Shown one piece after another: positions 40,844 to 54,597 of a stretch of 64,000 nucleotides of DNA. Under the pieces are notes generated by a model. That model was not told the DNA's origin, ran no database searches, and saw only the letters and a list, made by a program, of their open reading frames with translations. The stretch comes from Ostreococcus lucimarinus. Taxonomy: Eukaryota. Both the position numbers and the translations under genes were made by a program. The stretch lies in NCBI GenBank assembly GCA_000092065.1, contig CP000592.1; one strand, given 5' to 3'. Within the stretch, counting starts at the first letter, position 1. Each line of letters starts with the position of its first letter.

Positions 40844-41339
40844 TCGTTCGTTCGTCGTTCGTTCGTTCGCGCGTTCGGCGTTCGTCGTTCGTTCGCGCGA
40901 CGACGCGTCGTCGACGCGCGTCGACGACGGTCGACGACGGACTCCCTCGGTCGGCTCGAGCGCCGCGATCGGTGCGTTCGAGTGTGCGGCGCGCGCGTCG
41001 GTCGCGCATCGCGGCATCTGCGCATTTCGACGGTTTTGTTCCCCTCGCGCGCGCGTCCGTCGGCGCGCGCCGTCGACGTCGTCGGTCGGTCGCCGCGTCC
41101 GCGCGCGATGGGGCGTCGCGACGCCAGCGCGGCGCGCGATGGGGCGTCGAGACGGTGCGGCGTCGACGTCCGCGTCGACGTCCGCGCCGTCGTCCGCGTC
41201 GACGCGCGCGTCGACGCGCGCGACGGCGTCGCGCGTCGCGAACGCGAATCGCCGCCGCCGAGGGTTGGCGCGCGGCGACGACGCGACGGATGGCGCGCGG
41301 TGCGACGCGCGCGGAAGCGCGAAGGGCGCGGTGACGCCG

Positions 41340-43181
41340 ATGCGCGCGCGCGTGACGCGGGCGATCGCGATGATCGGCGAAAGACTCGGAACGACGACGA
41401 CGACGACGACGACGAAGGCGGAGACGACGCGGACGACGCCGCGGCGGGTGGTGTACGACGACGACGGAAACGTGTTGAGCGATTTCGTCGGGCAGACGAC
41501 GTGTGCGATCGAATCAGACGGTGAGAGTGGGATGACGCGCGTGAAGCTGACGACGTACGATCGCGTGGGATTGATGGCGGATTTAGGAAACGCGTTCAAC
41601 TCGATGGCGCTGAGCATTCGGAGCGCGCACTTGACTTCGACGAACGAGGGGCTGGTGGAGTGTACGTTCGTCGCGTCCACGTTTGCGCTTCGAGCGATGG
41701 CGGCGAATGATTACGAAGAGTTGAAAACGCGCTTGGTGACGAGCGCGTTGCGTCGAGGCAAGTCGCCGAAGTGGATCGAACGTCAGGCGCGCCTGAAGCA
41801 ACTCTTCAAGCGCATCGACACCTTGGACAGCGGATACATTTCGCAGCGCGAGGTGGACACGTACGCGAAATCTTTGAAGATGCCGGCATCGTTCGTGCAC
41901 GACTTTGTGGCCGAAGGGGATTCGAACGGGAACGGGTGGATGAACTTTGAAGAGTTTGCCGCGTACGCGCGCTCCAAAGATATCGCTTTGCGCGACGCGT
42001 TTGACTCGTTGGAACCGGACGATAAGGGCGTCATCACGGGAAAACAACTCAAGAGCGGCTTGCGTGATTTAGAGTTGCGCTCGGGGCGATATAACACGCG
42101 TAAAAAACTGCGACAGAAAAATTTAGACGCCGTGCTGCAGTCCGTGTCGGATAACGCTTTGCTCAACGCGGATGATTTCCGCGATTTGCTCGTCTTCATG
42201 CCCGTGGACGCGTTTAGAACGGTGCAGCCGTACTACATGAAGGTTGGTTTAGATATTGGACCTCGCCGTCTCGCGATTCCAGACAAACGTAAAGACGGTT
42301 CACCGTGGGGGCACTTTGTCGCCGGCGGCGTCGCCGGCATCGTCGCCAAGACGATGTCGTCGCCGCTCAACGTCGTCGCGATTCGCACCACCGTGGGTGG
42401 CGACGGCACCGTCGGATTATCGCGAATGTTTCAAAAGATCATGCGCGAGGAAGGAACCAAGGGATTCTTCAAGGGCAATTTAGCGAATTCGGTCTCGAGC
42501 GCGCCTGGCAAGGCGTTTGACTTTTTCGCGTACTCGACGTACAAGAATATGCTCACTCGAGGCGAGCCGCGCGAGCCGACGAATGTTGAACGGCTCTTGG
42601 CGGGCTCGCTCGCTGGTATGACGTCGGACACACTGCTATACCCACTCGAAGTCATCTCCACGAGACTGTCGATCAACACAAAGGCGTACGCGAATTCGCT
42701 CGCCGCCGCCGCCGCGGTGGTTCGTCAGACTGGATTGCGAGGGTTGTACTCTGGCTGGGGGTGTGCGATGCTCGGAACGATTCCTTACACCGGTTTGAGT
42801 TTCGGCACGTACGACATTCTTTCATCAGCGTACAAAAGGGCGACGAAGCAAGAATCCGCGGGCGCCTTACCGACGCTGCTGTGCGGAGTGACTTCGGGGT
42901 TCATCGCGTCCACGGCGTCCTATCCGATTTATCGCGTCACGGTGAGAATGCAAACTGGCCTCGCGCCGAGCTCGTCCATCGCCAATTGCTTGAAGCTCAC
43001 GCTGAAGGAAGGAGGTGCCAAGGCGTTGTTCCGCGGTTGGGTACCGAGCTCGTTGAAAATCGTGCCTCAGGCGGGATTCTCTTTCCTGACGTACGAGCTC
43101 GTGCGCACGCTTTTGAAGGAGAAGGAAGAAAAAGATCGCGCCGCCGCGAGCGCCGCGAAGCAGTCGCCGGGGAAAAGTTGA
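41340..43181 (+). CDS. Calcium-binding mitochondrial carrier (SCaMC/APC-like): ACT-like N-domain, EF-hands, then three mitochondrial-carrier repeats
   Basis: EF-hand loops (DTLDSGYISQREV, DSNGNGWMNFEEF, DDKGVITGKQL). Carrier signatures PLNVVAIRTTV, PLEVISTRLS and PIYRVTVRMQ. An ACT-like fold lies upstream (MTRVKLTTYDRVGLMADLGNAFNSMALSIRSAHL). Start is Met41340 or the ORF start at 41139. Confidence 0.8.
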   Translation: MRARVTRAIAMIGERLGTTTTTTTTKAETTRTTPRRVVYDDDGNVLSDFVGQTTCAIESDGESGMTRVKLTTYDRVGLMADLGNAFNSMALSIRSAHLTSTNEGLVECTFVASTFALRAMAANDYEELKTRLVTSALRRGKSPKWIERQARLKQLFKRIDTLDSGYISQREVDTYAKSLKMPASFVHDFVAEGDSNGNGWMNFEEFAAYARSKDIALRDAFDSLEPDDKGVITGKQLKSGLRDLELRSGRYNTRKKLRQKNLDAVLQSVSDNALLNADDFRDLLVFMPVDAFRTVQPYYMKVGLDIGPRRLAIPDKRKDGSPWGHFVAGGVAGIVAKTMSSPLNVVAIRTTVGGDGTVGLSRMFQKIMREEGTKGFFKGNLANSVSSAPGKAFDFFAYSTYKNMLTRGEPREPTNVERLLAGSLAGMTSDTLLYPLEVISTRLSINTKAYANSLAAAAAVVRQTGLRGLYSGWGCAMLGTIPYTGLSFGTYDILSSAYKRATKQESAGALPTLLCGVTSGFIASTASYPIYRVTVRMQTGLAPSSSIANCLKLTLKEGGAKALFRGWVPSSLKIVPQAGFSFLTYELVRTLLKEKEEKDRAAASAAKQSPGKS

Positions 43182-43245
43182 GCTCGGACAAGAGGAGGTG
43201 TTGTAATTGCATGGTACTATTAATGAGTAGAGCCCTACACGGCGC

Positions 43246-44337
43246 TTACATTTTCTTCGACCCGCACACGGTGCGGTGACGCGGATCCGTTTGTTCTTGA
43301 TGCACGTTTTCGAAACCGGCGTTTGTCAACATTTGCTGCACGTCGATGGTGTAATATTCGTTCGAGTGCGGCTCCGTAGACTTCATGAGCGTGAACAACG
43401 CCGGTGGAAGCTTTTGAATTACCGGACTCTGCGGGTTGTTATCCGTCATCACAAACGTACCGCCCGGTTTCAACACGCGATGCGCCTCCTTCATGAGCGC
43501 CGCCGTCGCGTTCTCGGGACACTCGTGAATCACAAAGGCGAGCGAAACGATGTCAAATGTCGCATCGGAGTACTTGGTGTCTTCGCCTTTACCGTGAACC
43601 CACGTGCGTCGCTCGCTTCCTTCCACGCCTTGATCACTCACGCTCGCCACGGCGAGCATGTACGGCGACAAATCGAGTCCCACGATTTCGGCTTGCGGAA
43701 ACGCCTCGCTCAAGTAGCGCGTCGACATCCCCACCGAACACCCAACGTCGAGAATTTTCTTCGGCTCGACGTCAGTGGCCTCGTTATACTTTTCTCGATG
43801 CGCGCGCACGGTGTCGGTGTACGAGTCTCTCAACCTTTGCTGCGCCGTCTCCGCCGTGATTCTATCCTTGGGCCAAACGCGGAGCGCCATGGAATACGTC
43901 GCGCTTCTCGCCTCCGTAGCGGCGAGCCAGCATAAATTCCCTTCGCTGTACGCGTGAAACGGTTTCAAGTAATACTCCGGGTATTCGATCGAATCGTCCT
44001 TGATCGCCTCGAACGCTTCGTACACCCTCGAGTCGCCCTCCAGGCGCTTCGCCTCGTCGCGCCACTGAATGCCATTCTTCTCCGCCGTCTGAATCAGCGT
44101 CCTTCGTGCCATCGGTTTCATGATGTTTTCGTACAGCAACTCGTTGGAGATCGCGGCGTCGACGAGCTTGGACAGCGCGTCGTCACCGGCCCAATCCGGT
44201 TTCGCCTTCTCGCTCGTCGCGCGCGCGACGGCGCGATGACGCGAACGATATCCACTTCTCGTCGACCTCGTGCGGGACGACGACGACGCGCTCGAGGGTG
44301 ACGCGCGGGCGCTCGCGCGCGATGCGACTGACAACAT
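43246..44337 (-). CDS. Class I SAM-dependent methyltransferase with Ser-rich presequence (plastid-type)
   Basis: Motif I ILDVGCSVGMSTRYL, motif post-I VGLDLSPYML, motif II/III FDIVSLAFVIHEC...VLKPGGTFVM. Resembles plant plastoglobule-type methyltransferases. Confidence 0.75.
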   Translation of the reverse strand: MLSVASRASARASPSSASSSSRTRSTRSGYRSRHRAVARATSEKAKPDWAGDDALSKLVDAAISNELLYENIMKPMARRTLIQTAEKNGIQWRDEAKRLEGDSRVYEAFEAIKDDSIEYPEYYLKPFHAYSEGNLCWLAATEARSATYSMALRVWPKDRITAETAQQRLRDSYTDTVRAHREKYNEATDVEPKKILDVGCSVGMSTRYLSEAFPQAEIVGLDLSPYMLAVASVSDQGVEGSERRTWVHGKGEDTKYSDATFDIVSLAFVIHECPENATAALMKEAHRVLKPGGTFVMTDNNPQSPVIQKLPPALFTLMKSTEPHSNEYYTIDVQQMLTNAGFENVHQEQTDPRHRTVCGSKKM

Positions 44338-44502
44338 ACTCGCGAGAGCGACGGTGGCGGTGCGAACGTCCGCGGCGCGCGTCGTCGAGTGGCGGCGTAG
44401 GTTTTGTCCAACGCGCGATGGCGCGCCTCTACGTTGAAGTTTAAGCGGTACAATGTTCCGATGTTTACACTAAAACTCAAGCTCTAAGTAAATTTAGATG
44501 CC

Positions 44503-45600
44503 TCACAGCGGCTTGACAAGGAGCGTGTTCGGTGCTTTCATCGACATCGCGAGCCCCCCTCTGCGGTAATCGGCGACGAGCGATCTGAAAGCTCGCTGTG
44601 TGGCGTCGATCGTTGCGCGCTCGAGGCGAAAACAGTTTGCTTGCGTGAAGACGTCGATTTTCATTTCCGTGAATTCGCCGGTATCGTTCAACGTGGGAAA
44701 GTACGCGTATCGCAAATCGGCGTTGTATGTTTTCGATGGAAAGCCTGCGTGATCGCCTATGCCTTCGTAATCGTTGAGAAGTTCTCCGCACCCAAAGAGT
44801 ATGAGTCGACGTTTGTAGAGCTCGGCGCTACGCGCGTGATGGCTCGAGTGTCCATGTACGAAGTGCGCACCAGCGTCAATCAGTCGGCGACAGACCATTC
44901 GCGTCTCCGGCTCAATCGAATACCCCCAATTGCCGCCGGCGTGCAGCGAGACGATTTTGATCGGCACGTCTGTGCGTTCGATTTCACGAGCGACTCGATT
45001 CAAGTCGTGTTCGTCTAGAATGAGAGCCAAACCCGCGGCGTTCCTTCGAGCCTGCCACGAAACCGGTACTCCTGAGTTTTCAAGACACAATCCAAATACC
45101 GCGGTGTCGGCAACAATCTTCGGTTCGAACGCCTGAAGGTCGTTTCGTCCTGCGCCCACTCGAGACGCTGAATCAATCGCGTCGAGTGTATCGATCAGTC
45201 CTTTGATGCCAAAGTCCAGTGTGTGATTGTTTGCCAGCGTCAGCACATCGACGCGCAAAGTTGCCAAGACATCGAGACAGTTTTCCTTCGACGCGCGATA
45301 ACACACTCCTTTACGCGGCCAAAACTCATCGTTCGTTGTCACTGACGTTTCCAAGTTTACGACGCTTAAGTCGATGGGCTCTCGCGAACGAAGAGCAGGA
45401 AGCAGGTCGCCGAGCAGTTCCTTCGCCGTCCAGGTTGGTTTACGCTGTATCGCGCACTTCTTCATCGCGAGGCGTACGTAGTCGTTGGCGTGCGTACAAC
45501 AAGATTCGCGTAGCGAGGCGTTTCGCAGCGGATTCGGAAGAACTTGATCCACGCCGCGCGCTAGCATGAGATCCCCGGCGAAAAAGAATTGCTTGGTCAT
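44503..45600 (-). CDS. CapA / PGA_cap family protein (bacterial poly-gamma-glutamate capsule-synthesis-type metallophosphatase)
   Basis: Typical CapA start FFFAGDLMLARG, and metallophosphatase blocks VNLETSV, LANNHTLDFG, VSLHAGGNWG and GHSSHH, with collinearity across about 350 aa. Lower GC than neighbours. Confidence 0.75.
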   Translation of the reverse strand: MTKQFFFAGDLMLARGVDQVLPNPLRNASLRESCCTHANDYVRLAMKKCAIQRKPTWTAKELLGDLLPALRSREPIDLSVVNLETSVTTNDEFWPRKGVCYRASKENCLDVLATLRVDVLTLANNHTLDFGIKGLIDTLDAIDSASRVGAGRNDLQAFEPKIVADTAVFGLCLENSGVPVSWQARRNAAGLALILDEHDLNRVAREIERTDVPIKIVSLHAGGNWGYSIEPETRMVCRRLIDAGAHFVHGHSSHHARSAELYKRRLILFGCGELLNDYEGIGDHAGFPSKTYNADLRYAYFPTLNDTGEFTEMKIDVFTQANCFRLERATIDATQRAFRSLVADYRRGGLAMSMKAPNTLLVKPL

Positions 45601-45670
45601 ACGTCGCGTTCTGAAGCATCGGCTGTTCTCTTAATACATGTCTCTGCGAACGACGCGAACTCACGCGAAA

Positions 45671-48514
45671 TCACGATTCGCCCGCAAACATGTTGAAGGC
45701 TCCTTTTGACAGCAGGTCGCTCTTGTAAGCCCCTTGCGCCAACACCTTCTTCGGTTTTCCGCTCGCCGTGTACTTTTTGAGCCACTGAGGAACTGAATCG
45801 ACGACTATCAAAACGTCCGTATACCCCGCCGACAGCGCGTGCTGCGCGGCGATCTCCGAGCGCTCGTCCGGCGACTCGTCGCCGACGAAAATCAGCGACT
45901 GTGCCTTATCGGCTGCGATGGATGCCAAAGCTTGCGCGAACGCGTCTTTGCCGACAATCGCGTACGTCGGCGAGAGCTTTGATCCTTCCGCTCGACGTAA
46001 AGGGACGTTAATGACGCCGTTGACCGATTCCATATTGAAAGCGTATGGGTTACGCACGTCGATCACCATCGATGATTTGGAAAGTAAACGCTGCACGGCG
46101 TCGTCGACGGAAATTGCCGTCAACGCGATGGCGCCTGAATCGCTCATCGGCGCCGAGAGCAACCAAATCTGATTCGTGACATCATACGCCGATGGATCCG
46201 CCCACTGACTCTTCTCGCTTTCGACGTTGTAAAAGTAAAGCCGATCGAACCTATCAAACGCCACTTTCCACGCGCTATTCGCGTTTGAATTCACCAGATG
46301 CTCCTCGAGTGCTTTCAAGTGGGCAATTTGCGCCGCTTTTCGCTCTTCCGCAAGACCTCCAACGACGGGAAGCTCGGCACCGACGCACGACGTACCAGAT
46401 GCACCGACCACCACGTCCAATTTCCATTCTTGTAAACGCTTTTTGCCGCCAGGTGTATACTCCTTCACCCAGCCATCGTACCCCCCATCGACAACAACGA
46501 CGTTTTCGTACCCGCGATCGATCAGCGCGTCCATGCAGCCGCACCGTTCGGGGTCATCCAACCCATTCGCTTCAATTTGACGCCCCCCGAGAAGCACTAC
46601 TGCAGCGTCTTTGTTTGGAAACTTTGAGGTGAAAACTTCAAGGAACTCTTGCGCATTTGTCGTGTACGTGTACGCAAGTGGTTTTCCTTCGATATTTACG
46701 AGAGGAATGTTCAAAGCGCCCGAAATGCTCTCGCGCCGAAACGATTTGACGTCACGAACGTCGATGACCGAGCACACGCCGGCTTTGAACGCGTCGAAAG
46801 CTTCTTCCACCGAAACCGTCATCCAGCGCTTGGACGATGGAGACTCTGGAATCGATTTTGACTGGATGCCTTCACTAGTCACCGTGAGTCGTCTTTCGGT
46901 CGATTCAAGTTCACGCTTCTCTCTGGCGCGCTTCATCGTCGCTTCGAGAAGCAATCTCCGCGCCTCTATGCTCTCTGGGCTCGCCTTGTTGATACGCATT
47001 TCTGCCGCGCGCGCGCGTCTCACTTCCTCGCGTTTCTTCATCGTCTTGCGCCAGTTATCCTTCGCCTCCATCGCCTCGCGCTCTTCATCCGTCAAGTCTT
47101 CCGGATTCTTTTGCCACTTCATGTACTCGATGGAGAGCTTTTGCGTCATCATGTACTGCTGCTGCTGTGCCAACTCCGTTGCCGCGTCAAACACACTTTG
47201 TGGGGAAATTGAAGCCCCTCGCACGACTTCTTTTGGCGTGTGATAGCGCCAGAGCGAGGAGTCATCGCCGACGTTTCCGAACAAGTCCTCCTCGCCCCCC
47301 AACGACATCTTTCGAATCAAAAACTCGCAACGCTCCCTGACGTCGACCTCGCACATCCAACGTGATACGGCGTCGTCGTATACTTTGGCCCGCGCGGCAC
47401 CAAAAAAGTCTAACGGCTGACCCGGGAACGCATTGACTAGACGCGCTGTGGCGTCTGGAGACCAGTCCACTTCGTCCTTGAAAAGTGCGTGCACGATGTC
47501 ACAGATATCGTCTCGACTAGGATTCCAGTACCACTTATCCATTCTTCCATCGCGCAACAATGGCGCGTAGACCGTTGATAAGTCGTTTCCTGTAACGATG
47601 ATCGGCACGCGCGCAGTTTGCAAATTTTTGCCATCTTCGCCGCGATCTTCGCCAAGACTGACGAGTTCTGGGTGATCACACAAATTCATTAGCGTGCCAC
47701 ACACGGTTTGGTTATTCACCGTGTGCTGCGTGTCCTTGAACCATCCAATACCAGCATCGACGTCGTTGATGATTAAACAGCTCATCACCCCCGTGCGTCG
47801 CAAAATTTCTCCTGCGCGCTTGTATCGCTCGCGAATCAACCGCCCTGGCGCGCCGGCGTTTTCGTCCTCCAACTCACCAGCGCTCGTGATGATCGGCGTC
47901 ACACCCATGGCTTTACACGCAAGTTCCAAATTAAACGATTTCCCGCAACCCTTGCCGCCCCAAACACCCAAAATCAGCGGGGTGTTAGGCGGTTGAACCA
48001 CGACTCCGGCTTCGTTTGTCATCTCTCGCACGTGTCGCAAGCCGCCGCCAAATAAAAAGTTCTTCACCAAGTGCCCGCTCACCTTCTCCATGAAAGCCGG
48101 TGGACAGTGGTAATCGCCGACTAAATTTTTAAACTTTCTAGCCTCTTGATACCGGTACCGAAGCTCGCCGCTCGCGATGTCGGAATCAGCGCCGAGTTGA
48201 AACTCGCCAGTGGCGTTGCGCGTGAAGACGTCGTCCACTACACCTTGTCGGGCGCCGACGTTTGTATTCGTGTTCCCGGTGTCGTTCTTCCCGAGCTCCA
48301 CGAGATAATCGCGCCCAATATTCTTCTGCGTCTTTTCACGCGCCGTCCAAGACGATGGACGGCGCGGACGACCACTCGACGACGTCCCGGAAGATGACGC
48401 CACGAGCGTCGACGAGCGTCGACGACGGACGCTCGACGGACGACAGGGACGACACGAGCGATCGACGTCCGGGGTTGATATCGCTCGTCCCACGGCGCAG
48501 ACTTTGCACGCCAT
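45671..48514 (-). CDS. Rubisco-activase-like AAA+ ATPase fused to rhodanese - WW - rhodanese modules
   Basis: RCA N-domain (CPPAFMEKVSGHLVKNFL). AAA+ core PLILGVWGGKGCGKSFNLELACKAMGV...LIINDVDAG...TVNNQ...VPIIVTGNDLSTVYAPLLRDGRMDKWYW is almost identical to the plant Rca core. Two rhodanese-like domains follow (VIDVRDVKSFRRESI..., MVIDVRNPYAFNMESV...) with a WW motif between them (WKVAFDRFDRLYFYNVESEKSQWADP). ORF runs to 48757; start trimmed to Met48514. Confidence 0.8.
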   Translation of the reverse strand: MACKVCAVGRAISTPDVDRSCRPCRPSSVRRRRSSTLVASSSGTSSSGRPRRPSSWTAREKTQKNIGRDYLVELGKNDTGNTNTNVGARQGVVDDVFTRNATGEFQLGADSDIASGELRYRYQEARKFKNLVGDYHCPPAFMEKVSGHLVKNFLFGGGLRHVREMTNEAGVVVQPPNTPLILGVWGGKGCGKSFNLELACKAMGVTPIITSAGELEDENAGAPGRLIRERYKRAGEILRRTGVMSCLIINDVDAGIGWFKDTQHTVNNQTVCGTLMNLCDHPELVSLGEDRGEDGKNLQTARVPIIVTGNDLSTVYAPLLRDGRMDKWYWNPSRDDICDIVHALFKDEVDWSPDATARLVNAFPGQPLDFFGAARAKVYDDAVSRWMCEVDVRERCEFLIRKMSLGGEEDLFGNVGDDSSLWRYHTPKEVVRGASISPQSVFDAATELAQQQQYMMTQKLSIEYMKWQKNPEDLTDEEREAMEAKDNWRKTMKKREEVRRARAAEMRINKASPESIEARRLLLEATMKRAREKRELESTERRLTVTSEGIQSKSIPESPSSKRWMTVSVEEAFDAFKAGVCSVIDVRDVKSFRRESISGALNIPLVNIEGKPLAYTYTTNAQEFLEVFTSKFPNKDAAVVLLGGRQIEANGLDDPERCGCMDALIDRGYENVVVVDGGYDGWVKEYTPGGKKRLQEWKLDVVVGASGTSCVGAELPVVGGLAEERKAAQIAHLKALEEHLVNSNANSAWKVAFDRFDRLYFYNVESEKSQWADPSAYDVTNQIWLLSAPMSDSGAIALTAISVDDAVQRLLSKSSMVIDVRNPYAFNMESVNGVINVPLRRAEGSKLSPTYAIVGKDAFAQALASIAADKAQSLIFVGDESPDERSEIAAQHALSAGYTDVLIVVDSVPQWLKKYTASGKPKKVLAQGAYKSDLLSKGAFNMFAGES

Positions 48515-48689
48515 CGCGGCCTGCGCGTCGGAGACTGACGCGACGCTTGACGACGCTTTATCCAGAGAGCCAACACCGGGAACGCGGCAGCCAGGCTTTC
48601 GGCGCGTCGGTCGCGCGAGGAGCAGGACTGGAGACGAGGAAGAGGCGACGAGTATACATTTAGCGTTCTTTAATTCGCAGCGTCTACGT

Positions 48690-50948
48690 CTACGATCTCG
48701 AGACGTAGCGGTTGCCCTCGAGCGTGAAGGTGGGTTTGGTGACGATGATGGTCTCATCGGTGTCGTCGTCGATCAAGGCAAAGTACGTCGATACCAATTC
48801 CGCCAAGCAACGGTGGAAGAGGTCGTTGGCGCGCCAGTCGCGCGCGGCGCCGAAACACGACACGCAGTCTTCGTGCGCCGCTTTCAAAGCATCACGCCAT
48901 TCGCGTTGAAACGCGACGAGTGCGTCACGAATGACGAGTGCATCAATGCTCGCGCCTTCACCGCTCCGACGGCGTCGCGAAATCGTCGTAATTCTCGGGA
49001 AGCGCTCCGCCAACGCGTGCGACACAAACGCTTTGGACTCTTCGATGAGTTTTTCTTCAAAGAAGTGCAGACTCGCGAGTTCTGTGGCGAGTTCGTCATC
49101 CTCAGCGCATCTCTCGACACCGTCATCATCGTTGAGATTCGTCAAAGAGCTTAACGTCGAGCAGATGTGATCGTACGACTTTACCAAATACGCGCTTCGC
49201 GAGCGAGGCGACGCCTTGAGCGAAGCGCACAGCTTACTCGTAACACAGTCGTACATCGACCGTCGCAAACGATCGAGAAACAAATCAACCTGATTCGTAA
49301 CGTTAAGTTCATCCGCAGAAGATGCGCCCATGCGCGAATGTGCCACTGTGGTGAGCGCGAGGACAAAGTTTGCGTATCGCTTCACGATGAAACTCGGCGA
49401 CTCTGGATTGGGCTCGAACGACTCTCGCGTGTCCTCGAGCGACTTGACGTGCGCATCACACGCGTGCTTGAACTTCGGCCAAAGTATCATGTTCAAGTTG
49501 TCGATGTACGCGTCCAGCGCGGGCACTCGGCGACGATTCATCACGCGTCTGTGGGCGTTGTTCACGCGGATGGCAATCAACAGCCCGACGGCGTCGTGCC
49601 CAGACTGCGCAACGCCTTGGGCGACGAAATCGTTGTACGCCATCAGTGGACCGGTGAAAACGATTTCAAACATTTCGCGCTCGCCTTTCCAAAATACTTC
49701 GCAAAACGCATACTCGAACGTCGCGGTGTCTATGAGCAGGCGATGCGCGCTTCGGAACAACTCCTCGTAGGCGTGCGCTTCTTGCCTCACCTTGTCCGAT
49801 TGCCGATGCACCACCAACGGAGGCTCTGTCTCTGCCGCATACATGGCACGCGCGCGATTACCAAGATCAAACAAGCTGTCGCCATTCGTCTCATCAGTCT
49901 TGGACGCACTAGAAGACGCCGGCGACGACGTGATGCCCGCGAACATTCCAGCCAAGGCGTTCGCCGCCGCCGACGCGACGTCGGTCGTCGCCGACGTTGT
50001 TGCCGTCGTCGAGGAAGTCGTGCGCGTCCTGGATGCGAGCAAAACTCGAGATCTAGGCGCTTTTGTGACGCGCTTGAGCGAATCCAAATACGAAGTCATC
50101 GCCGTTTTCAACACTTTTCCCACGACATCCGCGTAAGTGCTCTTCACCTCCCAATACACCTCTGGTCCTCGCTTACGTAGGAACTCGATCAGAGGCGCGT
50201 GTCTCGCGAGTGAATTTTCTTGAATTAACTGTACGTTCGCGCGTGGCTTCTTCAACGCCGCGAATTCACCGTACAAGAAGGCCCAAGCGCGGTCGACCGC
50301 CTTGACGCGCAGTCGCTCGAGTTCTGGCGCGACGTCGTTTACAGCGCGACCCGCGCCTTTCGATGCGGACACACTGAGATGATCCAACTTCACCTCGAGT
50401 TCGCGAACGCCTTCGACAAATCCCCCGTCACCGCCGACGAAGTCGCCGTTAAACACGGCGTTAATCAGCGACGGCGGTACCGAAAGCGCCTCCACCGCGT
50501 CGCCTAATTTTCGCTCAGCTCGCGCGCGGTTTGCACTTCGCACGCGTAAATCTTCGCTCGAACGCTGTAACTCCCTAATTTCCATCGATATACGCCCTAA
50601 ATCGTCCTGAAACGTCTTCAACGTTTGTTCCATGTCGCTCAATATCCCGTCGCACGCGTGCACTTCGCCTTGCAGTTGCAGTAAATTCTCGCACTCATCC
50701 GCGTGAGCGTCGATCGAGCGACGCTCGACGTCCACGAGTTTCATTTCGATCTCCCTCGCGCGTCGATCGAGGGATTCGAAATCACCATCATCGTCATCCT
50801 CGCCGTGCTCGTCGTCGTTTTCTCGTCGCAACAGCGCTCGAATGACTTCGTGATTGGCGTACCGCAGTAACGATGCCGACGTGGGAGTCAGCGTCGACGT
50901 GTCGTTGACGCCGCGCTCGGGTGCTCGCATCACGCTCGTACGATCCAT
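48690..50948 (-). CDS. VPS52: VPS52 (GARP complex subunit, Sac2 family)
   Basis: N-terminal coiled-coil block LQLQGEVHACDGILSDMEQTLKTFQDDLGRISMEIRELQRSSEDLRVRSANRARAERKL is typical of Vps52 (LQ..S..M..RL.NR). Full length about 750 aa is consistent. Confidence 0.7.
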   Translation of the reverse strand: MDRTSVMRAPERGVNDTSTLTPTSASLLRYANHEVIRALLRRENDDEHGEDDDDGDFESLDRRAREIEMKLVDVERRSIDAHADECENLLQLQGEVHACDGILSDMEQTLKTFQDDLGRISMEIRELQRSSEDLRVRSANRARAERKLGDAVEALSVPPSLINAVFNGDFVGGDGGFVEGVRELEVKLDHLSVSASKGAGRAVNDVAPELERLRVKAVDRAWAFLYGEFAALKKPRANVQLIQENSLARHAPLIEFLRKRGPEVYWEVKSTYADVVGKVLKTAMTSYLDSLKRVTKAPRSRVLLASRTRTTSSTTATTSATTDVASAAANALAGMFAGITSSPASSSASKTDETNGDSLFDLGNRARAMYAAETEPPLVVHRQSDKVRQEAHAYEELFRSAHRLLIDTATFEYAFCEVFWKGEREMFEIVFTGPLMAYNDFVAQGVAQSGHDAVGLLIAIRVNNAHRRVMNRRRVPALDAYIDNLNMILWPKFKHACDAHVKSLEDTRESFEPNPESPSFIVKRYANFVLALTTVAHSRMGASSADELNVTNQVDLFLDRLRRSMYDCVTSKLCASLKASPRSRSAYLVKSYDHICSTLSSLTNLNDDDGVERCAEDDELATELASLHFFEEKLIEESKAFVSHALAERFPRITTISRRRRSGEGASIDALVIRDALVAFQREWRDALKAAHEDCVSCFGAARDWRANDLFHRCLAELVSTYFALIDDDTDETIIVTKPTFTLEGNRYVSRS

Positions 50949-51068
50949 AGCGATATACGCGCACTCGCGTCGTGCGAGACGCTCGAACCAGAACGCGCGC
51001 CCTGTTTTGAGGCGTCGATGCAGATGTCTAATACTTTACACTTTCGGGCTACTACGTGAGAAGTTTCC

Positions 51069-51737
51069 TTACTCTTTTTCTACGGGCGCGGGCGCGACTT
51101 TCTTCTTCGCCTTCCCCGATGGCTTTGAATTCTTCGCCGCCGCCGCGTTCGTCGGTTTGCCCTTTGAAGAAGTCTTCTTCGCCTTGCCTTTCCTCTTACC
51201 TTTCGCCGGCGGCGCCTCGCCTCGCGCCTGGCTCAGGCGAAAGCGACGAATCTTTGCCGCCACCCCGTCCAACTCTTCGACTTCATCGTGAAAGTCATCC
51301 AACGTATCGCGATCCGCTTGTCTGGCGATTCGTTCGTTCAAGAGGGAAGGAATGTAGCCAAAGTTGCGGTTTCTCAGCAAGTCCTTGAAAGGTTTTTCGC
51401 CGTGCACCATGCGATGCCAGTTTATGTTGCGTCCAATCTCGCCCCCCGCGCCCGCACACCTGCGGCAGTTCACCGCTCCCTTGCCTTGACAAAACATGCA
51501 CTGAAATGTCTCAATCTTCGCGTTCAACGTCGCGAAATCACCTCGATCCTCCGGCTTTTGCAACTTGCCAGTGGCTTTGCAGTGCTCGCAGCGCATCGTC
51601 TTCGCGCCGCCGCAGAGCGTGCACGTTCGGTGTAACCAGTGCGCGCCGGACTCGCGCGCGGCTGCGATGACGGTGCCGACGAAGCATACCTGCGCGCACA
51701 CGCCCAGGATGCCCTTGATGTCGTCTTCACCACCCAT
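51069..51737 (-). CDS. DnaJ-type zinc-finger (4x CxxC) protein with N-terminal TM anchor and Lys-rich tail (BSD2/LQY1/CYO1-like)
   Basis: CTLCGGAKTMRCEHCKATGK...FQCMFCQGKGAVNCRRCAGAGG gives four CxxCxGxG-type motifs. One TM (ILGVCAQVCFVGTVIAAA). C-terminal KGKRKGKAKK low complexity. Confidence 0.5.
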   Translation of the reverse strand: MGGEDDIKGILGVCAQVCFVGTVIAAARESGAHWLHRTCTLCGGAKTMRCEHCKATGKLQKPEDRGDFATLNAKIETFQCMFCQGKGAVNCRRCAGAGGEIGRNINWHRMVHGEKPFKDLLRNRNFGYIPSLLNERIARQADRDTLDDFHDEVEELDGVAAKIRRFRLSQARGEAPPAKGKRKGKAKKTSSKGKPTNAAAAKNSKPSGKAKKKVAPAPVEKE

Positions 51738-51779
51738 CGATGTCGGCGTCGGGCGTCAGGTTATGCGGTGTAGTGAGGG
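51738..51779. promoter_or_regulatory. Very short (about 40-100 bp) shared 5' region of the divergent DnaJ-ZnF and PWI genes
   Basis: Start codons at 51737 (-) and 51780/51840 (+). Inference. Confidence 0.3.
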
Positions 51780-52469
51780 TTGAGATTTTCTCCGCACTTC
51801 CGCACTCGCGCGCGCTCGAGTCTTTACGCGACGAGCCGCATGAGCACGTACAGACAACCGTTCAGCCGCGGTGCCGCGGCGTTCGGGAAACGACCGAGCA
51901 GCTCATCGAGCGCCAACGCCAAGCTCGCCGAGGCGCTCAAGGTGAAAATTGACATCGACAAGGTTGATTTAGAAGTCATCAAACCGTGGATCTCGCGCGA
52001 GATCACCGCGCTGTTGGGGGTGGAGGACGAAGTTTTGATCGGCATGATCGAGGTGTTGCTAGAAGAGTGCAAGATTCACAAGAATGGCGCACACATGTAC
52101 GCGCAGTTGGAGTCGTTTCTCGAAAAGCAAACCGAAACGTTTTGCGTGCAACTGTGGGAGCTCTTGGCGAGCGCACAGGCGAACGCGGGCAAACACGGAG
52201 AGAAAGGCGTGCCATCGAAATTCATGAAGGATACCGAGGCGCAGCGCAAGCGCGAGGACGAGGCGTACGAGCGCATGAAGAAAAATCAGGAACGCGGTCG
52301 CGACGGTCGACGTTCGCAGCAGAAACCGTATGACCGGCCGCCGCGACGACATAGCAGAGATAGGGTAGGACGCGGCCAAGAGAGGCGACGGGATTCTAGA
52401 AGTCCGCCGCGGCGACGGTCGCGGTGGGGCGCCGACGGTGAGCGGAGCGACGGCAGCGACGACGCGTGA
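51780..52469 (+). CDS. SRRM1: PWI-domain protein, SRRM1/SRm160-like
   Basis: KVKIDIDKVDLEVIKPWISREITALLGVEDEVLIGMIEVLLEE...FCVQLWELLASAQ aligns closely with the SRRM1 PWI domain (VNLEVIKPWITKRVTEILGFEDDVVIEFI...ELWPLLLSAQ). RS/RD-rich tail. Start may be Met51840. Confidence 0.8.
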   Translation: MRFSPHFRTRARSSLYATSRMSTYRQPFSRGAAAFGKRPSSSSSANAKLAEALKVKIDIDKVDLEVIKPWISREITALLGVEDEVLIGMIEVLLEECKIHKNGAHMYAQLESFLEKQTETFCVQLWELLASAQANAGKHGEKGVPSKFMKDTEAQRKREDEAYERMKKNQERGRDGRRSQQKPYDRPPRRHSRDRVGRGQERRRDSRSPPRRRSRWGADGERSDGSDDA

Positions 52470-52578
52470 AGGAGGCGAGACACTCATCGAGGTTGAACCG
52501 CGGCAAAACTCAAGATGGAGAAAATTTGTAAAATGTTGAATTCATTATTTCATCAAGTTCATCGCGCACGAGTACAAT

Positions 52579-54597
52579 CTACGCTGCCACGGTTTTCGGC
52601 CACTTGTCGTGAATCCAGCTCTTGAACTTTGCACACGCCGGCAAGAAACCTCCGTTTTCGGCACTATCGGCGATGACCTCGTCGCCATGGACGAATAGCA
52701 TGCGCATGTCCAAATCAACATCGCTCGTAGATGTGGCTTCGGCTAGAGATTTTTCATAAGCCTCACGTTCACTCTTGACAAGTTCTTCGACGTCTTCGCC
52801 GAGTTCTTTGACCCAAGCGTCGTGCGACAAAGGCTTGCCAGTGAGATTATTCACCAACCCGAGGAAGCCCGGCTTGCCGCTGCCGGCACGCCAGTACTCG
52901 GCTTCGAGCGTTGGACCGACTTTTGGGTTATCGACAATGTATCCCTCGGTGCGGAAGAAATGCTCTCGAGTTTGGTGCACGGCCATCTCTGCGAACACGT
53001 ATCCGTGGTAGTATGCGGACGACTCGTCGGCCAAGATGTGCGGCACGCTCATCAACGGACGACCGCTGAAACCTCCTTGAATCTTTTCTTCAATCTCATC
53101 AGCGACGCGGCAAATGTTTTCCGTCGTCAATTGATCTTCCGAAAGCTCGTACAAAGCCTTCTCAAAGTACGGCACGGCGATCATCCCGCGCAGCGCCATG
53201 ACCTTATAAGGGTGCTTTTGTCGAATATTTCGTTCAATCAACTCCCAAGGAATGACGTTGCCCTTGCGATCCTTCGCGTATCGCGCTTGCCACGCAGCGT
53301 CTTCGCACAAGGCGTCGAGAAACATTGATTGTGTCTCCGCCAAGGCGACAGAGAACGGCGCCCGCTCTTGCGCAAACACCGGAGAACCTTGAACGATGTT
53401 GGCAAAGTGCGCGGCGTGTCCGCCTTCGTGCATCAGCGTCGTCAAGGCGGTGTTACCGCTACCAATTTCATCAGGCGTGGCGAGCGAGGTAAAGTTCGAC
53501 TCAGACGGCACCCACGTGCCATCAGTTTTCTTGAACGGCGGCGTCGGCCAGTGGCAAAAACCGTTGGGATACTTGCCGACGCGATCGCATAAATCCAGTC
53601 GCATAGTCGTGCCTTTGTAACCAATCTTCATCGCCCCGAACGAGCGTCCCCAGACCTCGGGAGCGTTTTCAAATGGATAATACGGATCAATCAACTGCGT
53701 CAACTCTCCGCTGAGCGCGTACGCTGTGTTCCATCCCTTGGTCGCGTCTTCGCCCTTTTCCGCCTTGAGCCTGTCGCGCGCGGCGTGCATGAGCGGTCGC
53801 GTAGCTTCCTCCAAGCCATCGAGCATCTCGAAGCACTTCTTCTTGTTGAAGCCTTCCGCTTGCGTCACCTTCATGTCGTAAAAATCCTCGAAACCGAGCG
53901 CGCGCGCGAAGCGGTTGCGCTCGGCGATGATGGCTGGGAAGCCGTTGTCGCACAAAAAGGGACCGTTCGCGCGAAGCGTCTCCCAGCAACTCTTGCGCAC
54001 GCACTCCTCATCGCTCGAGCGAATTTTCGTGCGCAACACCGTGGGCGTGGCCGAGACGAACTTGCCGTCCACATCGGTGTACCCGAGCTCTTGTTTATTG
54101 CGCGCCGCTTGCAACGCGTTCTCCTTCGCGATGGCGGATTCGCGCAACGCCACGGCTTCTTTGGACTCGACGATGTAGCACTTGAGCGTTTTTTCGATTT
54201 GCTCCAGCACAATCCTTTGGTCATCCGTGACGTCTTTGGACGCCAACAACTCGCGCGTCTTCGCCAACGTCTCAGCGTCGCCCATGAACGTCTCCAGCGC
54301 GTTGAACGACTTCGTCAGCGCCTCCACGTCGTTCCCTCGCAGGTTCATCTTCGTCGCCCAAAAGTTATCCTCGAACGTCTTGTGCTTGGCCAGGTATTCA
54401 TCGTTGAAAGCGTCGATGAAGGACGCCGGCGTCGTCGTCGCCGAGTTCGCCATGACGTGACGTCCTCGTCCTCTCGCGGCGACGTTTCCGACGACGGCGC
54501 GCTCGCGAGCGCGTCGAGCGAGCGTCGAGGCCGAGCGCGTCGAGGTCGAGTTCAACGCCGATCCGCGATGCGTGATCACTCGAGCGATGACGCGCAT
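52579..54597 (-). CDS. Zinc metallopeptidase, M3-like (neurolysin/oligopeptidase-fold gluzincin) with presequence
   Basis: HEGGHAAHF...(about 25 aa)...ALAETQSMFLD matches the M3 HExGHxxH...E.PSQ.xEN arrangement; about 600-aa mature length. ORF runs to 55002; start trimmed to Met54597 (the 48 aa before MANSATT look like a targeting peptide). M2/M32 relatives not excluded. Confidence 0.55.
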   Translation of the reverse strand: MRVIARVITHRGSALNSTSTRSASTLARRARERAVVGNVAARGRGRHVMANSATTTPASFIDAFNDEYLAKHKTFEDNFWATKMNLRGNDVEALTKSFNALETFMGDAETLAKTRELLASKDVTDDQRIVLEQIEKTLKCYIVESKEAVALRESAIAKENALQAARNKQELGYTDVDGKFVSATPTVLRTKIRSSDEECVRKSCWETLRANGPFLCDNGFPAIIAERNRFARALGFEDFYDMKVTQAEGFNKKKCFEMLDGLEEATRPLMHAARDRLKAEKGEDATKGWNTAYALSGELTQLIDPYYPFENAPEVWGRSFGAMKIGYKGTTMRLDLCDRVGKYPNGFCHWPTPPFKKTDGTWVPSESNFTSLATPDEIGSGNTALTTLMHEGGHAAHFANIVQGSPVFAQERAPFSVALAETQSMFLDALCEDAAWQARYAKDRKGNVIPWELIERNIRQKHPYKVMALRGMIAVPYFEKALYELSEDQLTTENICRVADEIEEKIQGGFSGRPLMSVPHILADESSAYYHGYVFAEMAVHQTREHFFRTEGYIVDNPKVGPTLEAEYWRAGSGKPGFLGLVNNLTGKPLSHDAWVKELGEDVEELVKSEREAYEKSLAEATSTSDVDLDMRMLFVHGDEVIADSAENGGFLPACAKFKSWIHDKWPKTVAA

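What the first reader, a model, noticed from the sequence alone, without database searches (positions are those of the whole stretch)
44503..45600. Bacterial-type CapA (poly-gamma-glutamate capsule synthesis) homolog in an algal nuclear chromosome, with lower GC
FFFAGDLMLARG... plus the metallophosphatase motifs are diagnostic of the PGA_cap/CapA family, which is overwhelmingly bacterial. This intron-less 365-aa gene has roughly 47-50% GC in a >60% GC context, which points to comparatively recent horizontal acquisition. Its substrate in a wall-less picoalga is not obvious.
Basis: partly seen in the sequence, partly recalled or inferred. Interest (0 to 1): 0.7.

Follow-up and report, generated by a model that had tools for sequence, protein, structure and literature searches.

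The report
Old bacterial-type CapA gene in Ostreococcus
The gene is real and is a bacterial-type CapA-family enzyme in the Ostreococcus lucimarinus nuclear genome, but it is an old, host-adapted gene shared with other tiny green algae, not a recent import, and public databases already give it this name.

Summary
The 365-aa ORF at 44503-45600 (-) is real and matches Pfam PGA_cap over the full model (E 7e-59). It is O. lucimarinus CCE9901 XP_001420872 / UniProt A4S630, already annotated as a CapA-domain protein.

The GC claim is wrong. The ORF is 54.8% GC (GC3 60.9%) in a 59.3% window. That is the low tail of host genes (z -1.4 and -2.0), not an outlier.

"Recent HGT" is not supported:
- The protein sits in a 100%-bootstrap clade of 12 sequences. 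Every clade contig I examined is a compact green-algal one, with ORC2, ELYS, TOR, Pex14 or plant-type VSR as neighbours.
- The clade shares unique motifs (YRAS, GCGE).
- Each homologue's GC3 tracks its own host genome.
- A 78%-identical orthologue lies in the same neighbourhood in a sister Ostreococcus lineage (dN/dS 0.21).

Bacterial origin is likely, but it predates the split of these algal lineages and the donor is unresolved.

The protein has no membrane anchor or targeting peptide, and no PgsB/PgsC lies within the window. The closest solved structure is the peptide epimerase MslH, and both of its His/Asp dyads are conserved here. Most likely it is a soluble metal-dependent enzyme, possibly an epimerase, rather than capsule machinery.

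One natural haplotype cleanly lacks a 4.2-kb segment that carries this gene and its neighbour.

The parts
44503..45600 (-). CapA-family (PGA_cap) gene: 365 aa, no intron. It is O. lucimarinus XP_001420872.1 / A4S630.
   Evidence: ORF. Pfam PF09587 E 6.8e-59. Exact database match. AF2 model pLDDT 95.4.
44767..45588 (-). Calcineurin-like catalytic core, residues 5-278. It carries D10, E84, N125, H126, D129, H220, H251 and H254.
   Evidence: Pfam stretch 5-278. Conserved columns. Residue mapping to MslH. Residues read out.
44506..44766 (-). C-terminal beta-rich subdomain, residues 279-365. It lies beyond the Pfam model but is shared with the roughly 370-aa bacterial homologues.
   Evidence: Query coverage of 83-100%, mostly 89-99%, in bacterial hits. 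Strands E296-364 and helix 331-347 in the model.
45601..45670 (-). 70-bp spacer to the upstream gene. An in-frame stop lies 30 nt before the ATG, so there is no room for an N-terminal extension or an upstream exon.
44434..48629 (.). 4,196-bp segment holding the CapA gene and the Rubisco-activase-like/rhodanese gene. It is exactly absent from one otherwise 99.5%-identical natural haplotype (L017). The junction shares 1 bp and has no flanking repeats.
   Evidence: blastn of L017 against the window. Junction sequence. Repeat scan.
45671..48514 (-). Upstream neighbour: AAA (Rubisco-activase-like) plus two rhodanese domains plus a weak WW hit (below Pfam's cut-off). It is called as 947 aa in metagenome gene calls. 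The open frame runs on to 48757 and overlaps the end of Vps52. It is co-deleted with the CapA gene in L017.
   Evidence: Pfam. 947-aa calls. Orthologues at 55-73% identity (best tblastn segment) in other Ostreococcus-like loci.
43246..44337 (-). Downstream neighbour: class I SAM methyltransferase (Methyltransf_11/UbiE-like). I used it as the synteny anchor.
   Evidence: Pfam. 80 related loci. Synteny table.

Best explanation
This is a nuclear gene for a soluble, probably cytosolic, single-domain enzyme of the PGA_cap/CapA family, which has the calcineurin-like metallophosphoesterase fold.

Origin (inferred). The family is bacterial. The gene most likely entered a green-algal ancestor by horizontal transfer before the Mamiellophyceae lineages that now carry it diverged. 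It has since evolved as an ordinary host gene. Its base composition follows each host, it is under purifying selection, it has moved between chromosomal neighbourhoods, and it has been lost or is variably present in many lineages.

Mechanism (inferred from homology, not shown).
- The two studied relatives I could find papers for, MslH and Bacillus PgsA, are reported to be peptide epimerases, not ligases. MslH is shown by crystal structure and mutagenesis. For PgsA I have only a secondary citation.
- The algal protein keeps both His/Asp proton-transfer dyads of MslH (H126/D129 and H254/D10) and three of its four metal ligands.
- It most likely binds a divalent metal and carries out acid/base chemistry on an amino-acid or peptide substrate. 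Epimerisation of a glutamyl or other peptide residue is the leading guess. Hydrolysis of a phosphoester or amide is the main alternative.

It is not a capsule-synthesis machine. It lacks the membrane anchor of Bacillus PgsA, and no PgsB/PgsC-type partner lies within 64 kb.

It appears dispensable. One natural haplotype lacks it, and the other Ostreococcus-like lineages sampled have no copy at this locus.
For: Identity and fold:
- Pfam full-length match.
- AF2 model at pLDDT 95.4, pTM 0.93.
- The Foldseek PDB top hit is MslH (E 4e-21, TMq 0.73), followed by YmdB-like, CD73 and purple acid phosphatase.
- MslH is also the only sequence-detectable solved relative.

Catalytic residues, MslH to this protein: D11 to D10, N87 to N125, H88 to H126, D91 to D129, H259 to H220, H295 to H254. 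Residue roles come from PMC10406935. PgsA's reported epimerase role is cited in PMC7168211.

Old and host-adapted:
- In an NJ tree of 203 sequences and 359 columns, the protein groups with P0002-P0010, P0013 and P0215 at 100/100 bootstraps, on a stem of 0.24.
- All 12 share YRAS and GCGE. Bacterial and fungal sequences have YRM(H/N)P and GCGD/GAGD instead.
- Clade members sit beside eukaryotic genes: ORC2 and ELYS, plant-type VSR, Pex14, TOR and proteasome, and a cNMP-gated channel.
- The IPMS gene on one such contig is closest to Mamiellaceae sp. RCC2288 (74%) and Bathycoccus (69%).
- Homologue GC3 runs from 0.59 in a 49%-GC host to 0.81 in a 68%-GC host.
- A 78%-identical fragment (P0214/L010) lies next to the orthologue of window gene 51840-52469.
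- dN/dS is 0.21, and the CDS is invariant in 12 assemblies apart from one synonymous change.

Soluble: maximum Kyte-Doolittle(19) is 1.23, the domain starts at residue 5, and there is an in-frame stop upstream.

No PgsB/PgsC: none in the window, and none beside the Rhodococcus ruber homologue.

Dispensable: L017 lacks 44434-48629, and no CapA gene was found in the fetched stretch (up to 6 kb either side of the methyltransferase) of the other Ostreococcus-, Micromonas- and Bathycoccus-like loci.
Against: - No biochemical or expression data exist for this protein.
- MslH's fourth Ca ligand, H261, is Gly222 here and in the whole subfamily. The metal site, and so the chemistry, may differ.
- The E44 to E84 equivalence was not aligned by HMMER and is my inference.
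- The tree is neighbour-joining with a simple distance correction. It is unrooted, and the bacterial sister group is unresolved: no candidate appears in more than 8% of replicates. Direction and donor of transfer therefore rest on parsimony of distribution.
- None of the algal contigs carries an organism name. Genus assignments rest on GC content and one marker gene.
- A fungal homologue at 41% identity exists, so an older eukaryotic history cannot be excluded.
- PgsB/PgsC could lie elsewhere in the genome.
- The deletion haplotype rests on one metagenome contig.
- GC3 is at the low tail (z = -2.0), which is weakly compatible with incomplete adaptation to the host, or equally with low expression.
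Confidence: 0.6

Rival explanations
1. Recent horizontal acquisition by O. lucimarinus from a bacterium, still visible as low GC.
For: - GC3 is the second lowest of 27 window ORFs, z = -2.0.
- No named O. tauri, Micromonas or Bathycoccus protein appears among the close hits.
- The gene is absent from the equivalent locus in all other Ostreococcus-like lineages sampled.
- It lies in a 4.2-kb segment that is present or absent among natural haplotypes.
Against: - The best bacterial identity is only about 40-44%. A recent donor should be far closer.
- The algal clade has 100% bootstrap support and shared unique motifs.
- Homologue GC3 tracks each host.
- A 78% orthologue lies in the same neighbourhood in a sister lineage, with dS 0.60.
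- The co-deleted neighbour has equally low GC3 (0.633), yet other Ostreococcus-like lineages keep it at this locus. The indel is therefore better read as a deletion.
- The real GC is 54.8%, not 47-50%.
Confidence: 0.04
2. An ancestral eukaryotic or green-lineage gene that was inherited vertically and lost almost everywhere, with no bacterial transfer.
For: - Homologues exist in several algal lineages, in a fungus (Calcarisporiella) and, by report, in cnidarians (PgsAA, PMC5375639).
- The tree is unrooted and the sister group is unresolved.
Against: - Apart from the 12 algal sequences and the one fungal sequence, every named hit among the top 120 or among the ten nearest tree neighbours I looked up is bacterial. 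11,287 representative clusters match.
- The fungal sequence does not join the algal clade and lacks its motifs.
- The cnidarian gene is itself described as a bacterial transfer.
- This reading would need very many independent losses.
Confidence: 0.08
3. A true PgsA/CapA-type subunit that makes poly-gamma-glutamate together with PgsB/PgsC-like partners encoded elsewhere in the genome.
For: - The family name and JGI's automatic annotation say so.
- Cnidarians use a bacterial-derived PgsAA to make poly-gamma-glutamate.
- PgsA's reported epimerase role in PGA is compatible with the conserved dyads.
Against: - There is no membrane anchor or signal sequence.
- No Mur-ligase-like PgsB or CapC gene lies within 64 kb, or beside the bacterial homologue I examined.
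- The closest bacterial relatives are roughly 370-aa proteins, most of which also start directly with the catalytic domain.
Confidence: 0.08
4. The same evolutionary history as the best explanation, but the enzyme is a hydrolase (phosphoesterase or amidase) like most calcineurin-fold proteins, not an epimerase.
For: - The fold is shared with YmdB-like phosphodiesterases, 5'-nucleotidase and purple acid phosphatase.
- H251 occupies the canonical GHxH metal-ligand position, and the MslH-specific ligand H261 is missing. A different and possibly binuclear metal site is therefore plausible.
Against: - The canonical motif-I histidine (DxH) is absent, with GD-L-M here. The bridging Asp of motif II is replaced by Glu (NLE), as in MslH.
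- Structural similarity to MslH is far stronger (E 4e-21) than to any hydrolase (E 4e-6 or weaker).
Confidence: 0.2

Closest known systems
MslH, lasso-peptide C-terminal Trp epimerase of Streptomyces (PDB 8GQ9; PMC10406935)
   Same: - It belongs to the same Pfam family (PGA_cap), and its PDB entries carry the same 'capsule biosynthesis protein' name.
- It is the best structural match (E 4e-21, TMq 0.73).
- Both His/Asp dyads and the ligands E, N and H are conserved.
- It is a soluble protein.
   Different: - Only about 16% identity in the structural alignment.
- MslH is 440 aa, with extra C- and G-domains that form the peptide cleft and an octamer.
- Its Ca ligand H261 is Gly here.
- MslH works inside a lasso-peptide gene cluster with a leader-peptide partner. 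Nothing of that kind lies near the algal gene.
Bacillus PgsA/CapA (YwtB) of the PgsBCA(E) poly-gamma-glutamate synthetase
   Same: - It is the founding member of the same Pfam family.
- It is reported to epimerise L-Glu to D-Glu in the growing chain (Ogasawara et al. 2019, as cited in PMC7168211).
   Different: - From general knowledge of the system, PgsA is membrane-anchored and encoded in an operon with PgsB and PgsC.
- The algal protein has no hydrophobic segment and no such neighbours.
- I did not have a PgsA sequence to align directly.
Uncharacterised roughly 370-aa bacterial 'CapA family proteins' (Streptomyces, Dactylosporangium, Rhodococcus ruber, Burkholderia, Nitrospirales and others)
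   Same: - Full-length homology at 38-44% identity, including the C-terminal subdomain and all motif residues.
- Most of those I read also begin directly with the catalytic domain, with no signal peptide.
- They are not in pgs operons in the one case examined.
   Different: - They are bacterial.
- They carry YRM(H/N)P and GCGD where the algal clade has YRAS and GCGE.
- None has a tested function that I could find.
- M. tuberculosis Rv0574c is reported to modulate cell-wall poly-alpha-L-glutamine (PMC5309233). I recall it being a CapA-like protein, but I did not verify that here.
Cnidarian PgsAA (poly-gamma-glutamate synthase of nematocysts)
   Same: It is the textbook case of a bacterial PGA-synthesis gene fixed in a eukaryotic nuclear genome by lateral transfer (Denker et al. 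2008, via PMC5375639).
   Different: - It has a known product and cell biology: an osmotic propellant in a secretory organelle.
- No sequence was compared here, and it did not appear among the close hits. It is probably an independent acquisition.

Membership tests
Pfam PF09587 PGA_cap / NCBI 'CapA family protein' | Whole-protein score above the curated gathering threshold, with full-length coverage of the model | tested here: met
   199.9 bits against a cut-off of 27. Profile positions 2-255 of 255, residues 5-278.
Pfam PF09587 PGA_cap / NCBI 'CapA family protein' | Calcineurin-like alpha-beta-beta-alpha metallophosphoesterase fold | tested here: met
   AF2 model at pLDDT 95.4. The best Foldseek PDB hits (E <= 0.001, ranks 1-8) are all calcineurin-fold proteins: MslH, 2cv9, CD73 and purple acid phosphatase.
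Pfam PF09587 PGA_cap / NCBI 'CapA family protein' | Family motif residues: GD, NxE, NNHxxD, H, GHxxH(H) | tested here: met
   G9, D10, N82, E84, N124, N125, H126, H220, H251, H254 and H255 are invariant in 43 sequences. D129 is at least 90% conserved.
PgsA/CapA subunit of the PgsBCA(E) poly-gamma-glutamate synthetase | N-terminal membrane anchor (from general knowledge of Bacillus PgsA) | tested here: not met
   Maximum Kyte-Doolittle 19-residue mean is 1.23. The catalytic domain starts at residue 5. An in-frame stop lies 30 nt upstream, and the next gene is only 70 bp away.
PgsA/CapA subunit of the PgsBCA(E) poly-gamma-glutamate synthetase | Partner genes PgsB (Mur-ligase-like amide ligase) and PgsC nearby or elsewhere in the genome | tested here: not met
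   No such domain occurs in any of the 27 long ORFs of the 64-kb window. The rest of the genome could not be searched with these tools.
PgsA/CapA subunit of the PgsBCA(E) poly-gamma-glutamate synthetase | Cells produce poly-gamma-glutamate | not testable with these tools
   This needs chemistry on O. lucimarinus cells. No paper held both 'poly-gamma-glutamate' and 'Ostreococcus'.
MslH-type metal-dependent peptide epimerase | Two His/Asp catalytic dyads (MslH H88/D91 and H295/D11) | tested here: met
   They align to H126/D129 and H254/D10. Roles come from PMC10406935.
MslH-type metal-dependent peptide epimerase | Mononuclear Ca(II) site formed by E44, N87, H259 and H261 | tested here: inconclusive
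   N125 and H220 align. E84 is inferred from the NLE motif. H261 aligns to Gly222, which is invariant in this subfamily. H251 and N224 are invariant and could substitute.
MslH-type metal-dependent peptide epimerase | Lasso-peptide gene-cluster context: precursor peptide, leader-binding protein, cyclase | tested here: not met
   The neighbours are a methyltransferase, an RCA-like/rhodanese protein, Vps52 and a mitochondrial carrier.
MslH-type metal-dependent peptide epimerase | Epimerase activity on a peptide substrate | not testable with these tools
   This needs recombinant enzyme and D2O-exchange or chiral analysis.
Recently transferred foreign gene (compositional island) | Base composition and codon use outside the host range | tested here: not met
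   GC z = -1.4, GC3 z = -2.0, codon fit z = -1.6. Second lowest of 27 ORFs. A neighbour that other Ostreococcus-like lineages also keep, and another ORF, are similar or lower.
Recently transferred foreign gene (compositional island) | Close donor-like sequence in bacteria, and no orthologues in related hosts | tested here: not met
   The best bacterial identity is 40-44%. The closest relatives, at 38-78%, lie on green-algal contigs wherever I checked and form a 100%-bootstrap clade.

The most novel reading that the evidence does not exclude
Several marine picoalgae (Mamiellophyceae-type) keep a private, anciently acquired clade of cytosolic CapA-like enzymes that work as metal-dependent peptide or polyglutamate epimerases. 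If so, these wall-less green algae would make D-amino-acid-containing peptides or polymers by a bacterial-type route. In wild O. lucimarinus-like populations the gene would be an accessory element, present in some haplotypes and absent in others.
Probability: 0.15. Interest if true: 0.6.

Novelty: new member of a known kind. Interest (0 to 1): 0.3.

Why it matters
In itself this is a modest result. NCBI, UniProt and JGI already label this protein as a CapA-domain / poly-gamma-glutamate synthesis protein. Bacterial-origin genes in algal nuclei are a familiar class.

Three things are useful:
- **A correction.** The gene is not a fresh transfer marked by low GC. It is a long-resident gene shared by several Mamiellophyceae-type lineages, so it should not be used as an example of recent HGT.
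- **A caution about the name.** The family name 'capsule synthesis' probably misleads. The two studied relatives I found are reported to be peptide epimerases. The algal protein keeps their catalytic dyads but lacks the membrane anchor, and no ligase partner lies within the window. If epimerase activity were shown, it would point to unrecognised D-amino-acid or polyglutamate chemistry in abundant marine picophytoplankton.
- **A small population-genomic observation.** The locus is a hotspot of structural variation in natural O. lucimarinus-like populations. There is a clean 4.2-kb presence/absence segment and an adjacent inversion that share a breakpoint within about 20 bp. I did not find this described in the literature searches I ran.

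Tried and rejected
- **Literature.** Searches for the protein accessions, for 'PGA_cap' with eukaryotes, and for 'poly-gamma-glutamate' with Ostreococcus found nothing. 'CapA' as a word-start term matched 'capable' and was useless. Rv0574c with CapA found nothing, and the primary paper PMC4288862 is not held.
- **Naming the algal contigs.** Two cluster look-ups of the CapA homologues and their neighbours returned no organism names. A search with a vacuolar-sorting-receptor neighbour gave only land-plant names at about 40% identity. That shows green lineage, not genus. Only the IPMS neighbour gave a Mamiellophyceae anchor.
- **Bacterial donor.** The sister group is unresolved in NJ bootstraps. 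P0082 shares the YRAS motif but sits on a 73.5%-GC contig of unestablished origin, with mixed bacterial-type and eukaryote-type domains among its neighbours. It is not close in the tree.
- **Viral vector.** IMG/VR gave one hit, inside a 1.9-Mb record, at 40% identity. BFVD gave only distant giant-virus 'capsule synthesis proteins' at 20-23% identity, and no prasinovirus. Rejected.
- **Repeats at the indel and inversion breakpoints.** Only short, low-identity GC-rich matches turned up, so repeat-mediated assembly collapse is not supported.
- **AFDB fold search.** It would have named UniProt orthologues, but the library was unavailable.
- **P0360, an apparent 66% homologue.** It is a C-to-T-converted (bisulfite-like) copy of the same gene, with 30 of 32 differences explained that way. 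I excluded it.
- **Contamination or misassembly of the window.** Rejected, because the identical gene order appears in 12 independent assemblies.
Full report
**1. What is in the sequence**

An uninterrupted ORF runs from 45600 (ATG) to 44503 (TGA) on the minus strand and encodes 365 aa starting MTKQFFFAGDLMLARG. It matches Pfam PF09587 (PGA_cap) over the whole model: E 6.8e-59, 199.9 bits against a cut-off of 27, profile positions 2-255 of 255, residues 5-278.

An exact-sequence look-up identifies it as Ostreococcus lucimarinus CCE9901 XP_001420872.1 / ABO99165.1 / UniProt A4S630. NCBI calls it 'predicted protein', UniProt 'Capsule synthesis protein CapA domain-containing protein', and JGI 'poly-gamma-glutamate synthesis protein'. 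The same sequence was seen on 526 contigs.

The rest of the window encodes ordinary eukaryotic genes: PEP carboxylase, argininosuccinate lyase, an OGT-like TPR glycosyltransferase, TCP-1, a DEAD helicase, Sec1, Rab3GAP, an Rrp6-like exonuclease, Vps52, an EF-hand mitochondrial carrier and a PWI protein. The same local gene order recurs in at least 12 independent metagenome assemblies. The gene is therefore genuinely nuclear and is not a contaminant.

**2. The composition claim**

The ORF is 54.8% GC, with GC1 60.1, GC2 43.4 and GC3 60.9. The window is 59.3%. The 1-kb bins that hold the gene are 58.4% and 55.2%, and the whole right-hand third of the window runs at 51-59%, apart from two bins at 63-64%.

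I compared the gene with 26 other non-overlapping ORFs of at least 200 aa:

| Measure | z-score |
|---|---|
| GC | -1.4 |
| GC3 | -2.0 |
| Synonymous-codon log-likelihood | -1.6 |

It is second lowest of 27 on each measure. The adjacent gene, which other Ostreococcus-like lineages also keep at this locus, has GC3 0.633, and ORF 55395-56165 has 0.576.

The gene sits at the low tail of host genes but is not outside their range.

**3. Relatives**

A word-indexed search of 5.8 billion proteins and an exhaustive HMMER scan of 1.84 billion representatives agree. After the identical cluster, identity falls in steps:

| Sequences | Identity to the query |
|---|---|
| 178-aa fragment P0214 | 78% |
| P0002-P0006 | 47-51% |
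| P0007 / P0215 | 42-46% |
| P0008-P0010, P0013 | 38-42% |
| Thousands of bacterial CapA-family proteins (Streptomyces, Dactylosporangium, Rhodococcus, Phytoactinopolyspora, Burkholderia, Nitrospirales, Trueperaceae, Binatia) | 37-44% |

P0360, an apparent 66% hit, is a C-to-T-converted copy of the same gene (30 of 32 differences), and I ignored it.

**4. The nearest relatives are algal**

The contigs that carry them are compact and eukaryotic:

| Homologue | Contig GC | Neighbouring genes |
|---|---|---|
| P0009 | 49% | ORC2, ELYS nucleoporin |
| P0005 | 56% | Plant-type vacuolar sorting receptor; its best named relatives are land-plant VSRs |
| P0215 | 57%, on a 263-kb contig | Pex14, TOR kinase, a proteasome subunit, isopropylmalate synthase |
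| P0004 | 61% | Its neighbour also occurs on an 886-kb contig |
| P0003 group | 67% | A cyclic-nucleotide-gated channel |

The isopropylmalate synthase beside P0215 has Mamiellaceae sp. RCC2288 (74%), Bathycoccus prasinos (69%) and Cymbomonas (66%) as its best named relatives. The cluster of P0008 includes an MMETSP transcript.

None of these contigs carries an organism name. 'Bathycoccus-like' and 'Micromonas-like' are therefore inferences from GC content and that one marker gene.

**5. Phylogeny**

I built a neighbour-joining tree from 203 full-length sequences (359 trimmed columns, Kimura distance, 100 bootstraps).

- The O. lucimarinus protein groups with P0002-P0010, P0013 and P0215 in a clade found in 100 of 100 replicates, on a stem of 0.24 substitutions per site.
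- An inner group, the query plus P0002-P0006, has 92% support.
- All 12 sequences share YRAS and GCGE. Bacterial and fungal sequences have YRM(H/N)P and GCGD/GAGD instead.
- The sister group is unresolved. No candidate appears in more than 8% of replicates.
- A fungal homologue (Calcarisporiella, 41%) and a Thermoanaerobaculia sequence lie nearby without support.

**6. Signs of long residence**

The homologues' GC3 follows their hosts:

| Host contig GC | Homologue GC3 |
|---|---|
| 68% | 0.81 |
| 62% | 0.69 |
| 56% | 0.64 |
| 49% | 0.59 |

The 78% fragment (L010) lies tail to tail with the orthologue (80% identity) of the PWI gene found at window 51840-52469. A sister Ostreococcus-like lineage therefore has the gene in the same, though rearranged, neighbourhood. 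Between these two orthologues dN = 0.124 and dS = 0.60, giving dN/dS = 0.21 over 175 codons. Across 12 population contigs the CDS shows a single synonymous change.

A recently imported gene would be expected to show none of these features.

**7. Synteny and structural variation**

I used the downstream methyltransferase to fetch 80 related loci and screened them by tblastn.

- Two loci reproduce the window's order: Vps52, RCA-like/rhodanese, CapA, methyltransferase, carrier.
- Other Ostreococcus-like lineages (methyltransferase 73-83% identical, GC 54-63%) keep Vps52 and, in most, the RCA-like gene and/or the carrier nearby, in various orders and orientations. None has a CapA gene there.
- The Micromonas-like and Bathycoccus-like loci have none either.
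- One contig (L017, Ga0257114_1000287) is 99.5% identical to the window on both sides but lacks window 44434-48629 exactly. The junction is ...CTCTACG|GAGACGAGG..., with 1 bp of shared sequence and no flanking repeats.
- That 4,196-bp segment holds the CapA gene and the RCA-like/rhodanese gene. Because other lineages also keep the RCA-like gene in this neighbourhood, I read L017 as a deletion. It rests on a single contig.
- Two further contigs (L101, L105) join window 48610 to 55273 in inverted orientation. That places a second rearrangement breakpoint within 20 bp of the first.

**8. The protein**

- **Localisation.** There is no hydrophobic segment (maximum Kyte-Doolittle 19-mer 1.23). The catalytic domain starts at residue 5. 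An in-frame stop lies 30 nt upstream, and only 70 bp separate the ATG from the preceding gene. A signal, transit or anchor peptide is therefore excluded unless the gene model is radically different. I infer a cytosolic location.
- **Structure.** An AlphaFold2 model built on a 43-sequence alignment is very confident (pLDDT 95.4, pTM 0.93). Its best PDB match by far is the lasso-peptide epimerase MslH (8GQ9, E 4e-21, TMq 0.73). A YmdB-like protein, CD73 and purple acid phosphatase follow at E 4e-6 or weaker. MslH is also the only solved structure detectable by sequence.
- **Active site.** MslH uses one Ca(II), bound by E44, N87, H259 and H261, and two His/Asp dyads, H88/D91 and H295/D11, for reversible C-alpha proton transfer (PMC10406935). 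Here the dyads correspond to H126/D129 and H254/D10. N87 corresponds to N125 and H259 to H220. E44 probably corresponds to E84 of the NLE motif. H261 aligns to Gly222, which is invariant in this subfamily.
- **Bacillus PgsA.** The founding member of the family is reported to epimerise L-Glu to D-Glu in growing poly-gamma-glutamate (Ogasawara et al. 2019, cited in PMC7168211).
- **Partners.** No PgsB- or PgsC-type gene lies in the window, or beside the Rhodococcus ruber homologue.

**9. Interpretation**

Shown here:
- family membership and fold;
- nuclear location;
- a private algal clade;
- host-tracking composition;
- purifying selection;
- lack of an anchor;
- the structural polymorphism.

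Inferred:
- bacterial origin by transfer before these algal lineages split, based on parsimony of distribution, with an unrooted tree and no identified donor;
- cytosolic location;
- a metal-dependent acid/base mechanism, most likely epimerisation of a peptide or glutamyl substrate, with hydrolysis as the main alternative.

The capsule-synthesis reading is unlikely but not excluded, because the rest of the genome could not be searched.

**10. Comparison with what is known, and verdict**

This is a plain member of a known protein family and is already annotated as such. It is one more example of a known phenomenon, a bacterial-derived gene fixed in a eukaryote. Cnidarian PgsAA is the classic precedent within this pathway (PMC5375639). 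I found no paper that discusses this gene.

Interest is low to moderate. The open points worth following are the enzyme's real chemistry and the presence/absence polymorphism.

Noticed in passing
window 44434-48629; L017 5905: A 4,196-bp segment holding the CapA gene and the RCA-like/rhodanese gene is cleanly absent from one metagenome contig (Ga0257114_1000287) that is 99.5% identical on both flanks. The junction has 1 bp of microhomology and no flanking repeats. It looks like a natural deletion haplotype.
   Followed up: partly
window 48610/48611 and 55273/55274; L101 and L105, positions 1-2728: Two contigs, one of them 672,823 bp long, join window 48610 to 55273 in inverted orientation. This is consistent with an inversion of about 6.7 kb covering Vps52, a zinc-finger gene, the PWI gene and the M3 peptidase. 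Its breakpoint lies within 20 bp of the deletion breakpoint. Only one side of the inversion was seen.
   Followed up: partly
window 45671-48757 (-): An unusual fusion protein: a Rubisco-activase-like AAA module, two rhodanese domains and a weak WW hit (below Pfam's cut-off). It is conserved at 55-73% identity (best tblastn segment) in other Ostreococcus-like lineages. It was not found next to the methyltransferase in Micromonas- or Bathycoccus-like loci. Its open frame overlaps the 3' end of Vps52 by 68 bp, so the real start is probably the 947-aa one at 48514.
   Followed up: no
loci L020-L044 compared with window 41139-50948: Vps52, the RCA-like gene, the methyltransferase and the EF-hand carrier recur, in varying subsets, near one another across Ostreococcus-like lineages. 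Their order and orientation differ in almost every lineage, which points to a local rearrangement hotspot.
   Followed up: partly
protein P0360 (database entry, not in the window): A 98-aa 'homologue' at 66% identity is the same gene read from C-to-T-converted DNA. 30 of 32 amino-acid differences are explained by C-to-T changes in the O. lucimarinus codons. It is probably a bisulfite-sequencing run assembled as ordinary DNA, and is a trap for diversity estimates.
   Followed up: yes
window 55395-56165 (-) and 56412-63215 (+): Two ORFs with no Pfam match: a 256-aa ORF with the lowest GC3 in the window (0.576) and a 2,267-aa ORF.
   Followed up: no
proteins P0226 and BFVD A0A481YZD1 and others (not in the window): The same CapA subfamily occurs in a mucoromycote fungus (Calcarisporiella thermophila, 41% identity). 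Distant 'capsule synthesis proteins' (20-23% identity) occur in giant-virus metagenome bins: Mimivirus LCMiAC01, Marseillevirus LCMAC101 and Pithovirus LCDPAC01.
   Followed up: no
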